From the IMG/VR virus record IMGVR_UViG_2695420427_000005: a stretch of 11,880 nucleotides of DNA. One strand, written 5' to 3'. Positions 1,983 through 4,880 of the stretch are shown here, one piece after another. Made by a program: the position numbers and the translations under genes. How positions within the stretch are numbered: the first letter of the stretch is position 1; every line of letters begins with the position of its first letter. The notes beneath the pieces were generated by a model. It ran no database searches and was not told the DNA's origin. It saw only the letters and a program-made list of their open reading frames with translations. The DNA comes from a virus (Duplodnaviria; Heunggongvirae; Uroviricota; Caudoviricetes).

Positions 1983-3923
1983 GCCGTCAGGTGCTGCACT
2001 GCCGGTGGGATGACGCTGTTCAGGGAACCTGACTGCGGCTCAAAGCGGGCACCGTTATCCACGATGGCTTCTTTTTCCAGTACGTGCTGCACCGCCGTGA
2101 TGGCAAAGGTGCCGTCCGTGTTTTCCCGGACGGAGACACAGCGGAACAGGCGACGGCGCAGTGACGGCAGGGAGAGTCCCCACACCCCGTATGTCTCCAC
2201 ACCATCAGGCAGGGTACTGACCTGTATCCGGTCCGGCGCGGGGTGTTCGGTGATGTCCACACTCACCGGCTTACCGCTGCCGTTAATCAGGTTCACCGTG
2301 GCGGCACCGGTCTCCGGAAGTGTCACTTCACGGTCCAGCGTCAGAGTGCGGGTGGCAGCATCAATGGACAGGACACGTCCGCCGGTCAGGGTCCCGGCAT
2401 AGTCGTTATCACAGATTTCAATGATGTCACCGGGTGTGTGCCGCAGCCCCTGAGACCCGAGCGTGAAATCCACCGTCTGCGTTTCCAGCAGTTCGGTCTT
2501 TATCACCCACAGTCCGGCACGGTGGGCCTGACCGCGGCTGGTACAGCCGAACGCGTCCATCTTCAGCAGGTTGCGTCCGTAGCGCAGTATGGCTTCCGGG
2601 TCTTCCACCAGTTCCGTGGAGGTCTGCCAGCCGTTCTGCGGGTCGGTATAATTCACCTCCACCGCCGTGTGCCGGTCCTTCAGGGCACTGAAGCTGTAGC
2701 GGAAACCCACGCCGTTATCATCCACCACCACATCGCTGTTGGTGTACGGCCACACCACATCCGACGGGCGGTCCTGAACAAACGTCAGCGTCTGGCCGTT
2801 CCATACCGGCATACAGCGCATCGCCGAGCAGAAATCACTGAGCACGTCCCATGCCTTACGCTGTTGTGCCAGGTACGCATTGAAGGTCATCCGCGGCTCG
2901 GTCTCCCCGAAACTATCCGGGACCGTCTGGTCGCAGTACTGCCCGATGGCATACAGCGCCCACTTGTCCACATCCGCCGCCCCCAGACGTTTTCCCATGC
3001 CGTAGCGCGGGTGAGTCAGCATGTCCCACAGACACCAGGCCGGATTGTTGCTGTATGCCGGTTTCAGGCTGCCGTCCCAGATACCACTGTACGTGCGTTT
3101 TTCCGGGTCATAGTTTGACGGCACCTGGATGATGCGACCGCGGATATGGTAGTTCACCGTCATCTGCTGGCCGCCGAACTGCTCCGCATCCACCTGCAGC
3201 CCCACAATGGCCGTGTTCGGGTAGCACTGTTTCACATCGATGATTTCGGTGTATGACGACCACAGCGTCTTATTCTGCAGCTGGTCCGTGGTGCTGTCCG
3301 CTGTCTCCCGGACCATCCGGATGTTAAAAGGACGGGGAGGCAGATTATCCAGAATCACCGACGCCAGAAACTGCGAGGTGGTCTTGCCGTTAATGGTGAC
3401 ATCCTTTTCTGTCACCCAGTTACCGTTACGCTGTAACTGAATCAGCAGGCGGACGGATGTCGGGTTTCGGTCACCCTTTGACGTGGTCTGCACCAGTGAC
3501 TGCACCCCGAAGGTAACCCGCAGGCGGTCAATGTTCGCGGACGTAATGGTGCGCGTCACCGGTTTTGCCTTCGTCACTTCCACGCCCAGTCCGGTTTCAG
3601 CACCGGAGGACTCAAAGCCTTCCGGTGGTGTCTGCTCCTGCTCCCCGGCGCGTCAGACCGCCGTCACACCGTGTATCACGGGATTACCGTCCGTGTCCGT
3701 CAGCGGGGTTTTGTTCACCAGGATACTCTGCAGTCCCTTCACCGGACCTTCTATCAGTCCCTCACCAATCGCATCAATCACGCTCATCATCTGCGTGGAT
3801 TTGAGATTATCCTTCGCCTCACGAGGCGTGTGTGCCTTACCGCCACCTTTTCCCATACAGCCTTCCCCTGAATAAATTAACCGCCACTTGCCATTCCGTA
3901 CAGAAGTCGGATATCCTTCGCCC

Positions 3924-3995
3924 GAAAAGCATGAAACACATTTCTGCCATGCTAAAGAGAAACCCCGGTATCAGCAGATACCGGGGTTTTCTTTC
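3924..3995 (+). ncRNA. Candidate small RNA 1 (about 70 nt), antisense to the tail operon; weak promoter, strong terminator
   Basis: Possible sigma70 promoter TTGCCA (3888..3893), 18-bp spacer, TATCCT (3912..3917); ends at the 3961..3995 hairpin. The only ORF through it (MKHISAML...) reads across the terminator stem and has no SD. Confidence 0.2.
3961..3995. terminator. Intrinsic-terminator-like hairpin with U-rich tails on both strands (possibly bidirectional)
   Basis: Perfect 12-bp stem AACCCCGGTATC (3961..3972) / GATACCGGGGTT (3977..3988) with 4-nt loop AGCA. Plus strand follows with TTTTCTTTC; minus strand follows with TTTCTCTTT. Confidence 0.55.
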
Positions 3996-4061
3996 ATGCC
4001 CACCGATAATCCTGTTGGTTAAAACCGGTAATGGCATAAAAATTCTGAATATCTTCACATT

Positions 4062-4089
4062 TTCACAAACTGACTGTGGCGCGTATAAT
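4062..4089 (+). promoter_or_regulatory. Near-consensus sigma70 promoter, TTCACA-16 bp-TATAAT, firing away from J toward I (antisense to the tail operon)
   Basis: -35 TTCACA at 4062..4067, 16-bp spacer, -10 TATAAT at 4084..4089, in an AT-rich context; predicted start near 4096. Confidence 0.45.
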
Positions 4090-4095
4090 TTCTCT

Positions 4096-4193
4096 GCGTT
4101 AATTTTTTTGTCGTGATATAAGAATAATTCCTTACACTTAATCTTCGTAACTCTCCCGCAGTTCCTGTCCGCGATCACTGCGGGATTTTTTTA
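4096..4193 (+). ncRNA. Candidate small RNA 2 (about 95-100 nt) between promoter 4062..4089 and terminator 4154..4192
   Basis: Promoter and terminator bracket about 100 nt with no plausible start codon plus RBS. The sequence is AU-rich with a 3' hairpin and poly-U tail, the usual architecture of Hfq-type sRNAs. Confidence 0.3.
4154..4193 (+). terminator. Rho-independent terminator, plus-strand orientation
   Basis: 9-bp stem TCCCGCAGT (4154..4162) / ACTGCGGGA (4177..4185) followed by TTTTTTT (4186..4192). The minus-strand side has no U-tract, so it is unidirectional. It lies just 3' of the I stop but points the wrong way to terminate I. Confidence 0.55.
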
Positions 4194-4199
4194 TTCTTT

Positions 4200-4880
4200 T
4201 TACCCCTGCCGCCCGATAACCACGACCTTTCCGCCCCCGCCTTCATCACGGGTGCTGATGTCCTGGGATATACGGCGGGAGCCAACCAGCATTTCCCCGT
4301 AAGGCACCGGCATCGGGTTCCCCTGGGCAATCATGTTATCCAGTGAGGAAAAGTACGTGTTCTGTCTGCCGTTATCCGTTGCGCGGTAATCCGGTGTTTT
4401 TGCCTTCGGGGCCAGCATCTGGGCCACACCGCCCAGAATCATGCTGGCTCCAAGTGAAAACAGCATCGTGGTGGCAGAAAAACCACCGGCTGCCAGGGCT
4501 GAACCCCATAACGCCATTGATGCCCCGGCAGTGAAGAAAGAGCCCACGATGGCTGCCGCCCCCAGCACAATCTGCAGTCCACCCTTTCCGGCCCCGGCCA
4601 GTCGCGGCACAATGTGGATGACCGTTCCCTCACCCAGCTGTTCGTGAAGACGGGCGTACACCGCCTCCGGTGCCGTGTCATAACCGGCAATACGTATCTG
4701 GTACCAGCCTTCGTTCATCTGACGGCGAAAGCCCGGCATCTGCATCGACAGGGCGCGAATGGCTTCCGCTGCCGTGTTCACATACAGGCTGAGGCGGCGG
4801 CCAAATCGTTGTAAATCCCCGTGAAGGCAGATGCGTGCCAGTGGCGGTGACGCCAGACTGAATGCGTTCGTCGTTGCCAT
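4200..4880 (-). CDS. I: Tail tip assembly protein I
   Basis: 226 aa, MATTNAFSLASPPLARICLHGDLQRFGRR ..., with a Gly/Ala-rich hydrophobic segment; collinear with lambda gpI (223 aa). Position between K and J. Confidence 0.9.
   Translation of the reverse strand: MATTNAFSLASPPLARICLHGDLQRFGRRLSLYVNTAAEAIRALSMQMPGFRRQMNEGWYQIRIAGYDTAPEAVYARLHEQLGEGTVIHIVPRLAGAGKGGLQIVLGAAAIVGSFFTAGASMALWGSALAAGGFSATTMLFSLGASMILGGVAQMLAPKAKTPDYRATDNGRQNTYFSSLDNMIAQGNPMPVPYGEMLVGSRRISQDISTRDEGGGGKVVVIGRQG

What the first reader, a model, noticed from the sequence alone, without database searches (positions are those of the whole stretch)
4062..4193. Candidate sRNA 2: promoter TTCACA-16-TATAAT followed about 100 nt later by a hairpin plus U7 terminator
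The promoter is 5 of 6 at -35 and 6 of 6 at -10 with a 16-bp spacer. The terminator is oriented for the same strand and sits immediately before the 3' end of gene I, which would stop the transcript running antisense into I. The enclosed ~100 nt has no plausible coding capacity. A compact, self-contained transcription unit opposite a late operon is unusual and consistent with a regulatory RNA.
Basis: seen in the sequence. Interest (0 to 1): 0.65.

Follow-up and report, generated by a model that had tools for sequence, protein, structure and literature searches.

The report
Prophage PasB-family small RNA gene
The promoter-plus-terminator unit is real: it is a diverged, so far uncatalogued version of PasB/EcOnc22, a small regulatory RNA already shown in pathogenic E. 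coli, which sits between two tail genes of lambda-like prophages.

Summary
TTCACA-16-TATAAT lies at 4062-4089. A hairpin (4154-4185) plus U7 (4186-4192) follows on the same strand, 7 nt from the stop codon of tail gene I. The pairing never arose in 2000 simulated windows.

The unit sits in a 343-bp gap between tail genes I and J; the same gap is 60 bp in phage lambda. It is the same locus as PasB of EPEC E2348/69, an 83-nt Hfq-dependent RNA with 37 RIL-seq partners. After a coordinate correction it also matches EcOnc22/23/24 of EHEC Sakai (~85 nt, destabilised without Hfq).

Promoter (49/52) and the terminator's last 25 nt are shared with PasB. The RNA body is only 63-67% identical, although flanking I and J are 95-98% identical. 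This "W" allele occurs in 800 of 5426 complete E. coli genomes, unannotated and absent from Rfam. It fails the BLAST criteria of the 2026 PasB survey.

Most likely it is an autonomously transcribed prophage "moron" encoding an Hfq-dependent trans-acting sRNA. Expression of this allele, its start site and its targets are inferred, not shown.

Verdict: a real but ordinary new member of a known sRNA family. Function is unknown.

The parts
3854..3856 (-). Start codon of tail-tip gene J. This is the lower boundary of the 343-bp I-J intergenic insert. J is a pseudogene in this window.
   Evidence: RefSeq annotation of the identical locus in ATCC 25922. Translation shows MGKGGGKAHTPREAK... with a stop at codon 68. 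Pfam GpJ domains are found in the downstream fragments.
3857..4043 (+). Long upstream module of the insert. It contains a very stable 12-bp hairpin (3960-3989) followed by a U-rich tract on both strands.
   Evidence: Folding gives -31.9 kcal/mol (z -7.1) on the plus strand and -28.3 kcal/mol (z -6.4) on the minus strand. The module is at least 99% identical in 1442 genomes. It is replaced by an 85-nt module with a different hairpin in E2348/69 and Sakai.
4044..4059 (+). Invariant upstream block TCTGA-N6-TCACA. It resembles a CRP site and is centred about 44.5 bp upstream of the predicted start. Its role is a hypothesis only.
   Evidence: It is invariant or nearly so in all 35 alleles aligned. 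The pattern search found 3 hits in the window with at most 1 mismatch, against 0.39 expected.
4062..4089 (+). Sigma-70 promoter: -35 TTCACA (4062-4067), 16-bp spacer, -10 TATAAT (4084-4089).
   Evidence: 11/12. The promoter block (4044-4095) is 49/52 identical to that of E2348/69 PasB. The -10 is kept as NATAAT in most alleles. The -35 is lost in the Sakai, 1720a-02 and WGPS8 alleles.
4096..4192 (+). Predicted primary transcript (97 nt), starting at a G 7 nt after the -10.
   Evidence: Inferred from the promoter geometry. GCGTTA at the start is conserved in all alleles. Fold energy is -19.4 kcal/mol, z -2.1.
4109..4192 (+). Equivalent of the published 83-nt PasB species (84 nt here). It begins at the end of the U-run 4103-4109.
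   Evidence: PasB coordinates NC_011601.1 1466343-1466261 (PMC8550237 Table S6) were mapped through the alignments. The Sakai Hfq-CRAC peak also starts just after the U-run.
4116..4128 (+). A-rich tract AUAUAAGAAUAAU with ARN-like triplets. It is a possible contact for the distal face of Hfq.
   Evidence: Seen directly in the sequence. Every allele has an A-rich tract at this place. The link to Hfq is inferred from the ARN rule of PMC4104026.
4129..4146 (+). Conserved core UCCUUACACUUAAUCUUC, the candidate seed. UCC.U and AUCUU are invariant across alleles.
   Evidence: Invariant columns are listed. The region is unpaired in the consensus structure. Mean unpaired probability is 0.51-0.73 across seven alleles.
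4154..4192 (+). Rho-independent terminator: stem CCCGCAG/CTGCGGG flanked by a U-A pair, variable loop, U7 tail (4186-4192).
   Evidence: The 7-bp stem is identical in all 19 aligned alleles, while the loop varies in length (9-16 nt) and sequence. On the minus strand the hairpin has no U-tract after it, so it is not a terminator for gene I.
4200..4880 (-). Tail assembly gene I, with its stop codon at 4200-4202. This is the upper boundary of the insert.
   Evidence: ORF list. Pfam Lambda_tail_I, E 6e-17. RefSeq annotates a shorter start for the same gene.

Best explanation
Window 4044-4192 (+) is a gene for a small Hfq-dependent regulatory RNA of the PasB / EcOnc22-24 family.

It is a "moron": extra DNA with its own sigma-70 promoter and its own Rho-independent terminator. 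It is inserted between tail genes I and J of a lambda-like prophage and points against the late operon. It can therefore be transcribed in the lysogen while the tail genes are silent.

The RNA is predicted to be 97 nt from 4096. The species reported for homologues corresponds to about 84 nt from 4109/4110. It has one stable element, the terminator hairpin with a U7 tail, which is the usual binding site for the proximal face of Hfq. Upstream of that lies a largely single-stranded body with an A-rich tract and a conserved core (UCCUU...AAUCUUC).

By analogy with PasB, it most likely base-pairs in trans with host core-genome mRNAs on Hfq.

The window carries a diverged allele ("W"). It shares the promoter and terminator with PasB, but about one third of the targeting body differs. 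It may therefore have a partly different target set.

Shown here: the anatomy, the homology, the position and the distribution. Shown in the literature for other alleles: the transcript, Hfq dependence and RIL-seq partners. Inferred: expression of this allele, the exact 5' end, the seed and the targets.
For: Anatomy:
- The promoter scores 11/12, and the terminator is a 9-bp outer stem (plus a 2-bp inner helix) with a U7 tail.
- The promoter-terminator pairing appeared in 0 of 2000 simulations.

Position:
- The I-J gap is 343 bp here and 60 bp in lambda.
- E2348/69 PasB lies in the same gap and orientation.
- The PasB northern probe matches window 4168-4187 at 20/23 nt.
- The promoter block is 49/52 identical and the last 25 nt of the RNA are identical.

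Experimental record for homologues:
- PasB is 83 nt, northern-verified and Hfq-dependent. It has 37 RIL-seq partners: 30 CDS/5'UTR and 0 sRNA. It is the second RNA in 99-100% of chimeras (PMC8550237).
- EcOnc22/23/24 of Sakai prophages Sp15, Sp14 and Sp11 all map to I-J gaps.
- The old-to-new Sakai coordinate offset is +135 to +139 measured on AsxR and +137 to +146 on AgvB1. It is compatible with EcOnc06/STnc100 at 3.49 Mb.
- With that offset the EcOnc22 Hfq peak falls on the body of the homologous RNA, at L123 1352-1412.

Conservation:
- Thirty-five alleles from 131 loci keep the upstream block, the -10, GCGTTA, the U-run, the UCC.U...AUCUU core and the terminator stem. The terminator loop and other body segments vary.
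- The W body occurs in 800 of 5426 complete E. coli genomes, 614 of them at 99% identity or more.
- The locus is intact here although the neighbouring J gene is a pseudogene.
Against: - No expression data exist for this particular allele.
- Rfam has no model for the family, so there was no match.
- The terminator stem is invariant, so covariation gives no support for the structure.
- The body is only 63-67% identical to PasB. It fails the published survey criteria: no hit at word size 28, and 30% query coverage at word size 11.
- The published 5' end lies 13-14 nt downstream of the start predicted from the -10. Either processing occurs or the boundary from RNA-seq coverage is imprecise.
- No target or seed has been defined for PasB itself; the published motif analysis gave motifs only for PasA, PasD1 and PasD2.
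- The whole-transcript fold is only modestly better than shuffles (z -2.1).
Confidence: 0.87

Rival explanations
1. The RNA acts mainly in cis as an antisense RNA to the late tail-operon transcript. It is perfectly complementary to the ~97 nt just downstream of the I stop codon. Pairing could trigger RNase III cleavage between I and J and lower or uncouple J expression. Conversely, the flood of late mRNA after induction could soak up the sRNA and release its host targets.
For: The gene lies fully inside the I-J intergenic part of the late transcript, on the opposite strand. On the minus strand the hairpin has no U-tract, so late transcription should read through and create the complementary RNA.
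Against: - The overlap covers neither the I coding sequence (7 nt away) nor the J ribosome-binding site (about 240 nt away).
- PasB in EPEC lysogens pairs with 37 trans partners, more than 98% of them core-genome RNAs.
- The locus is kept intact here next to a dead J gene. A purely J-directed role would then be useless.
- No significant pairing to any tail-gene translation-initiation region was found (best -22.8 kcal/mol; shuffled seeds did as well in 32% of trials).
Confidence: 0.15
2. It is a chance or relic promoter-like and terminator-like pair in non-coding filler DNA and makes no functional RNA.
For: A promoter of at least 11/12 alone appears in 4.7% of simulated windows. The total number of promoter-like and terminator-like sites in the window is no higher than in shuffles.
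Against: - The pairing appeared in 0 of 2000 simulations.
- Promoter and terminator are conserved while the body diverges.
- Homologous alleles give abundant Hfq-bound RNAs in two pathotypes.
- The W allele is at least 99% identical in 614 genomes.
Confidence: 0.03
3. The insert encodes a small protein. Candidates are the 113-aa minus-strand ORF 3837-4178, or the short "hypothetical proteins" annotated over this spot in phages 1720a-02 and PhiR12_4.
For: Mechanical ORFs exist. Two phage records annotate 50-aa and 32-aa hypothetical proteins over the homologous stretch.
Against: - There is no Pfam match.
- RefSeq annotates nothing in the gap itself.
- Alleles differ by 1-, 2- and 5-nt indels and by a roughly 100-bp module swap, so no frame is preserved.
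- The plus-strand transcript has no ATG.
Confidence: 0.02

Closest known systems
PasB (pathogenicity-associated sRNA B) of EPEC O127:H6 E2348/69, prophage PP6. Sources: Pearl Mizrahi et al. 2021, PMC8550237; distribution survey by Zhu, Shabalina and Storz 2026, bioRxiv 10.64898/2026.05.13.724894.
   Same: - Same I-J intergenic position and orientation.
- Same promoter: identical hexamers, 16-bp spacer, 49/52 nt overall.
- Same GCGTTA, U-run and UCCUU...AUCUUC core.
- Identical last 25 nt, including the terminator arm and U7.
- The northern probe matches at 20/23 nt.

   Different: - The RNA body is only 63-67% identical, although flanking I and J are 95-98% identical.
- The terminator loop is 5 nt longer.
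- The upstream module is 187 nt instead of 85 nt.
- The window allele is not retrievable with the survey's criteria of word size 28 and query coverage above 75%. It is therefore probably not counted among the published PasB variants, which are said to differ by "a few nucleotides".
EcOnc22 / EcOnc23 / EcOnc24 of EHEC O157:H7 Sakai prophages Sp15, Sp14 and Sp11 (Tree et al. 2014, PMC4104026 Table S2; function listed as unknown in PMC7873438).
   Same: - Same I-J gap in three prophages.
- Same core and the same terminator stem.
- ~85-nt northern band, Hfq-CRAC peak over the body, destabilised in delta-hfq.

   Different: - This is a third allele class: the -35 is not conserved, the -10 is AATAAT, and the terminator loop is CTCCGCTAACT.
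- The equivalence to PasB is my inference. It rests on a coordinate offset of about +137. The papers I read do not state it; Table S6 of PMC8550237 lists EHEC homologues for PasA and PasD but none for PasB.
AgvB / AsxR anti-sRNAs of EHEC lambdoid prophages (Rfam RF02702, RF02703).
   Same: They are prophage "moron" sRNAs that bind Hfq. They have a conserved 3' part and a variable 5' targeting part, and they occur as allele families spread among lambdoid prophages.
   Different: - They lie elsewhere, downstream of the Q-dependent late promoter PR' rather than between I and J.
- There is no sequence or model match.
- They are 51-60 nt long.
- They act by sequestering core sRNAs, whereas PasB had no sRNA partner in RIL-seq.
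Classical phage morons such as lambda lom and bor, and the HK97/HK022 tail-region morons (Juhala et al. 2000, as cited in PMC4104026).
   Same: Extra DNA between two genes that are adjacent in related phages, flanked by its own promoter and terminator, and expressible from the repressed prophage. The I-J gap is 60 bp in lambda and 343 bp here.
   Different: The cargo is a non-coding RNA rather than a protein gene.

Membership tests
PasB sRNA family | Gene lies between tail genes I and J of a lambdoid prophage, antisense to them. | tested here: met
   Window I is 4200-4880 (-) and J starts at 3856 (-). PasB in E2348/69 lies between the same genes.
PasB sRNA family | Shared promoter and terminator sequence, including the site targeted by the published northern probe. 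| tested here: met
   Promoter block 49/52 identical. The last 25 nt are identical. The probe AATCCCGCAGTGATCGCGGAGCT matches 4168-4187 at 20/23 nt.
PasB sRNA family | RNA sequence retrievable with the published survey criteria (blastn word size 28, query coverage above 75%). | tested here: not met
   No hit at word size 28. At word size 11 only 25 nt align, giving 30% query coverage. Body identity is 32/51 to 44/66. The window RNA is therefore a diverged allele, not one of the published near-identical variants.
PasB sRNA family | A transcript of about 83 nt whose level depends on Hfq. | not testable with these tools
   Shown for the EPEC allele (PMC8550237) and for the Sakai allele (~85 nt; PMC4104026). 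No data exist for the window allele.
EcOnc22-24 (EHEC Sakai) | The Hfq-CRAC peak coincides with the homologous RNA. | tested here: met
   All three peaks fall in I-J gaps. With the measured offset of about +137, the EcOnc22 peak is L123 1352-1412, the RNA body. The offset was measured at 1.27 and 1.94 Mb and bracketed at 3.49 Mb, not at 2.9 Mb itself.
Hfq-dependent trans-acting sRNA (class) | Rho-independent terminator with a U-tail of at least 6. | tested here: met
   The stem spans 4154-4185 and U7 is at 4186-4192.
Hfq-dependent trans-acting sRNA (class) | Conserved, accessible seed region. | tested here: inconclusive
   The UCC.U...AUCUU core is invariant and unpaired in the consensus structure. 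Its unpaired probability is 0.51-0.73. No target motif is known for PasB.
Hfq-dependent trans-acting sRNA (class) | Physical association with Hfq and with target mRNAs. | not testable with these tools
   Shown only for homologues.
Phage moron | Extra DNA between genes that are adjacent in related phages, carrying its own promoter and terminator. | tested here: met
   The lambda I-J gap is 60 bp against 343 bp here.
AgvB/AsxR anti-sRNA family | Match to the Rfam models RF02702/RF02703 and location downstream of PR'. | tested here: not met
   No match at the gathering threshold or at E up to 10. The same models do find AgvB and AsxR in Sakai control loci. The location differs.
Phage cis-antisense regulators (lambda OOP or P22 sar type) | The RNA overlaps the coding region or ribosome-binding site of the gene it controls. 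| tested here: not met
   The RNA ends 7 nt short of the I stop codon and starts about 240 nt from the J start codon.

The most novel reading that the evidence does not exclude
The I-J locus may be a modular, recombination-shuffled sRNA cassette. The expression frame is fixed: an invariant CRP-like upstream block, the -10 and the terminator. The targeting body is exchangeable.

Under this reading the W allele, found in 15% of complete E. coli genomes including many human clinical isolates (among them ST131 and UPEC-named strains), controls a host regulon different from that of EPEC PasB. Its expression would be tied to carbon or stationary-phase status. It would also be kept by selection in decaying prophages, as here next to a dead J gene. 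In other words, it would be a domesticated, allele-diversified host regulator.
Probability: 0.3. Interest if true: 0.6.

Novelty: new member of a known kind. Interest (0 to 1): 0.35.

Why it matters
The finding shows that a sequence-only reading can pick out a genuine prophage sRNA gene.

In practical terms, it links two literature names (PasB and EcOnc22-24) to one locus. It also shows that the published PasB census misses a second, equally common allele class. The W body is in 800 of 5426 complete genomes and the PasB-type body in 887. The W allele is unannotated in RefSeq and has no Rfam model.

If the body divergence changes target choice, strains would differ in post-transcriptional wiring according to which tail-module allele their prophage carries. 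The function of the whole family is still unknown, so the biological weight is limited for now.

Tried and rejected
- **Rfam.** I searched at the gathering threshold and at E up to 10. Nothing credible turned up; the weak hits (STnc310, CopA and others) are generic hairpins on the neighbouring upstream hairpin.
- **AgvB/AsxR.** This was my first recalled lead. I rejected it because those genes lie downstream of PR', and the Rfam models that find them in Sakai do not match here.
- **Coding capacity.** Pfam gave nothing for the two ORFs crossing the gap, and their frames are not conserved between alleles.
- **Covariation.** The only consensus helix is invariant, so it is uninformative.
- **Pairing to the phage's own genes.** I tested the RNA body against the translation-initiation regions of the 11 tail genes in the window. 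The result was no better than shuffled seeds (p about 0.32).
- **Scan of one genome per species (185,579 species).** There were 27 pattern hits. Twenty-five were unrelated generic terminators with the same stem. Two were true copies on tiny contigs in a Streptomyces and a Parendozoicomonas assembly, most likely E. coli contamination. No other species representative carries the locus.
- **Calibrating Sakai coordinates at 2.93 Mb.** I tried EcOnc15 near stx1. The result was inconclusive because there is no Rfam family there.
- **PasB target motif.** None is published. The EcOnc22 northern probe sequence was not in the supplement part I read.
- **CRP-like site.** It is suggestive only. The pattern is not rare enough in the window (3 hits against 0.39 expected), and its centre at -44.5 is 3 bp off the canonical class II position.

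Full report
**1. The observation**

The window is the tail module of a lambda-like prophage on the minus strand. It carries Z, U, V, G, T, H, M, L, K, I and then J.

The best sigma-70 match in the window lies between the stop codon of I (4200-4202) and the start codon of J (3854-3856). It reads TTCACA (4062-4067), 16 bp, TATAAT (4084-4089), on the plus strand, and scores 11/12.

A terminator follows on the same strand. The scan reported a 6-pair inner hairpin. Folding shows that the real stem is U-CCCGCAG (4154-4161) paired with CTGCGGG-A (4178-4185). Seven U follow at 4186-4192.

I ran 2000 first-order Markov simulations of the window. A promoter this good appeared in 4.7% of them. A promoter followed 40-160 nt later by a same-strand terminator never appeared.

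The enclosed sequence has no ATG. Two mechanical ORFs cross the gap. They have no Pfam match, and their frames are broken by indels between alleles.

**2. What it is**

Megablast of 3860-4260 found the stretch in 1730 of 5426 complete E. coli genomes. It always lay next to "tail assembly protein", and nothing was annotated in the gap itself. Rfam has no match.

The literature gave the identification. Pearl Mizrahi et al. (PMC8550237) list PasB in Table S6. It is an 83-nt sRNA of EPEC E2348/69 prophage PP6, at NC_011601.1 1466343-1466261 on the minus strand. Its northern probe is AATCCCGCAGTGATCGCGGAGCT. The reverse complement of that probe matches window 4168-4187 at 20 of 23 nt.

Fetching the EPEC locus showed PasB in the same I-J gap and orientation. 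It has the same two promoter hexamers and spacer length, the same GCGTTA/U-run leader and an identical 3' end.

In phage lambda the I-J gap is 60 bp. Here it is 343 bp. The unit therefore fits the classical definition of a moron: inserted DNA with its own promoter and terminator.

**3. A second literature name for the same locus**

Tree et al. (PMC4104026, Table S2) list EcOnc22, EcOnc23 and EcOnc24 as homologous Hfq-bound RNAs in Sakai prophages Sp15, Sp14 and Sp11. EcOnc22 gives a ~85-nt northern band and is destabilised in a delta-hfq strain.

In the current Sakai record all three coordinates fall in I-J gaps. They lie about 23 nt from J, upstream of the PasB-like gene.

The table's coordinates are offset from the current record. 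I measured the offset in three places.
- AsxR requires +135 to +139.
- AgvB1 requires +137 to +146.
- EcOnc06/STnc100 at 3.49 Mb is compatible with this range, +99 to +227.

With +137 the EcOnc22 peak becomes L123 1352-1412. That is the body of the PasB-like RNA, from just after the U-run to the terminator loop.

PasB and EcOnc22-24 are therefore alleles of one family. The papers I read do not say so. Table S6 of PMC8550237 names EHEC homologues for PasA and PasD but none for PasB. A 2021 review lists the function of EcOnc22 as unknown.

**4. Allele structure**

An exact-match scan for the terminator in IMG/VR returned 120 loci. Together with E. coli and phage records these gave 131 copies and 35 distinct alleles.

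The following blocks are invariant or nearly so:
- an upstream block TCTGAA..TCTTCACATT;
- the -10 (NATAAT);
- GCGTTA at the predicted start;
- a U-run;
- an A-rich tract;
- the core UCC.U...(A/G)AUCUU;
- the 7-bp terminator stem with its U-tail.

The terminator loop varies in length (9-16 nt) and in sequence. Three body segments also vary, and mosaic alleles exist.

The only consensus helix is the terminator. Its pairs never vary, so covariation is uninformative. The core is mostly unpaired in seven alleles.

Between the window and E2348/69, identity differs sharply by segment:

| Segment | Identity |
|---|---|
| Flanking I | 97.7% |
| Flanking J | 95.3% |
| Promoter | 94% |
| RNA body | 67% |

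The body is a divergence hot-spot in otherwise near-identical tail modules.

The window's "W" body occurs in 800 of 5426 complete genomes, 614 of them at 99% identity or more. Many of the listed examples are human clinical isolates, including a strain named UPEC-455U; an O25b:H4-ST131 strain appears among the hits for the neighbouring upstream module. The PasB-type body occurs in 887 genomes.

The 83-nt PasB query gives no hit on the window at word size 28. At word size 11 it reaches only 30% query coverage. The window therefore fails the criteria of the 2026 survey, which describes PasB variants as differing by a few nucleotides. The W allele is probably missing from that census.

A scan of one genome per species found the locus in no other species representative. 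The only true copies were on two contigs that look like E. coli contamination. This agrees with the published restriction to Escherichia and Shigella.

**5. How it most likely works**

PasB is documented in EPEC as follows:
- It depends on Hfq. In the differential-expression table it shows log2 fold changes of -6.8 and -2.4, which I take to be delta-hfq against wild type.
- It is higher in overnight static LB than in exponential DMEM.
- It is the second RNA in 99-100% of RIL-seq chimeras.
- It has 37 partners: 30 CDS/5'UTR and none that are sRNAs.
- More than 98% of its chimeric fragments involve core-genome RNAs.

This is the signature of a canonical trans-acting Hfq sRNA, not a sponge.

The window allele keeps every element needed for that mode: promoter, U-tailed terminator, A-rich tract and single-stranded conserved core. 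I therefore infer the same mechanism. A possibly shifted target set is speculation.

The 5' end is uncertain. The -10 predicts a start at G4096, giving 97 nt. The published boundary corresponds to 4109/4110, giving 84 nt, and the Sakai CRAC peak also begins after the U-run. Cleavage in the AU-rich leader, or imprecise boundaries from RNA-seq coverage, would reconcile the two.

A secondary cis role against the late I-J transcript cannot be excluded. However, the RNA overlaps neither coding sequence nor the J ribosome-binding site. The locus is also intact here beside a dead J gene. I found no significant pairing to the tail-gene initiation regions.

**6. Regulation (hypothesis)**

The invariant upstream block contains TCTGA-N6-TCACA at 4044-4059, one mismatch from the CRP core. 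The -35 hexamer is lost in the Sakai, 1720a-02 and WGPS8 alleles, yet the Sakai allele is expressed.

PasB is low in glucose-containing DMEM and high in overnight LB. This is the opposite of the CRP-repressed sRNA Spf.

Against the idea, the site is centred at -44.5 rather than -41.5. The pattern is also not rare in the window: 3 hits against 0.39 expected. I rate this idea as weak.

**7. Verdict**

The feature is a new, diverged and widespread member of an already described prophage sRNA family whose function is still unknown. Interest is moderate to low.

Noticed in passing
window 3857-4043, hairpin 3960-3989: The part of the insert upstream of the sRNA promoter is a 187-nt module with a very strong 12-bp hairpin. 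Folding gives -31.9 kcal/mol (z -7.1) on the plus strand and -28.3 kcal/mol (z -6.4) on the minus strand. U-rich tracts follow on both strands, so it looks like a bidirectional terminator. A weak promoter-like site lies upstream at 3888-3917. The module is at least 99% identical in 1442 genomes and accompanies both W and PasB-type alleles. E2348/69 and Sakai carry an unrelated 85-93-nt module whose hairpin is oriented as a terminator for the late strand. It could be a second small RNA or an insulator.
   Followed up: partly
window 3653-3655 and 676-1977: Tail-tip gene J is a pseudogene in this window. It has an in-frame stop at codon 68, where ATCC 25922 has Trp. Further along there is an imperfect 649-bp direct repeat (676-1331 against 1325-1977, 78-93% identical) that shifts the frame. 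The prophage cannot make a normal tail tip, yet the sRNA locus is intact.
   Followed up: partly
window 4044-4059: A CRP-like palindrome TCTGA-ATATCT-TCACA is invariant in all alleles, whereas the -35 hexamer is not. It is centred at about -44.5. It might explain the higher PasB level in LB than in DMEM. This was not tested.
   Followed up: partly
L123 1337-1428; L124; L125 (Sakai Sp15, Sp14, Sp11): EcOnc22/23/24 of Tree et al. 2014 appear to be the Sakai alleles of PasB. The coordinates in their Table S2 are offset by about +137 nt from the current record NC_002695.2. The link is not stated in the papers I read.
   Followed up: yes
L142 (Parendozoicomonas haliclonae, 460-bp contig) and L149 (Streptomyces flavalbus, 3408-bp contig): Two species-representative assemblies of non-enteric bacteria contain small contigs with PasB-family alleles. 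They are almost certainly E. coli prophage contamination. L149 carries a mosaic allele not seen elsewhere in my sample.
   Followed up: no
L127 644-796 (phage 1720a-02, AGR48338.1) and L128 616-714 (phage PhiR12_4, XSB41965.1): Short "hypothetical protein" genes are annotated on the tail-gene strand over the homologous sRNA stretch. They are probably over-predictions covering the sRNA gene.
   Followed up: no
alleles a12 (L066), a32 (L128), a04 (L004), L149: Several alleles are mosaics of W-like, PasB-like and Sakai-like segments. The upstream module and the RNA body also assort independently. This points to recombination breakpoints inside and beside the sRNA gene.
   Followed up: partly
E2348/69 allele, L002 2762-2859 (-): In PasB-type alleles the predicted 98-nt primary transcript folds so that the 5' U-run pairs with the A-rich tract. 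Removing the first ~14 nt, as in the published 83-nt species, would free that tract. The window allele does not form this helix.
   Followed up: no
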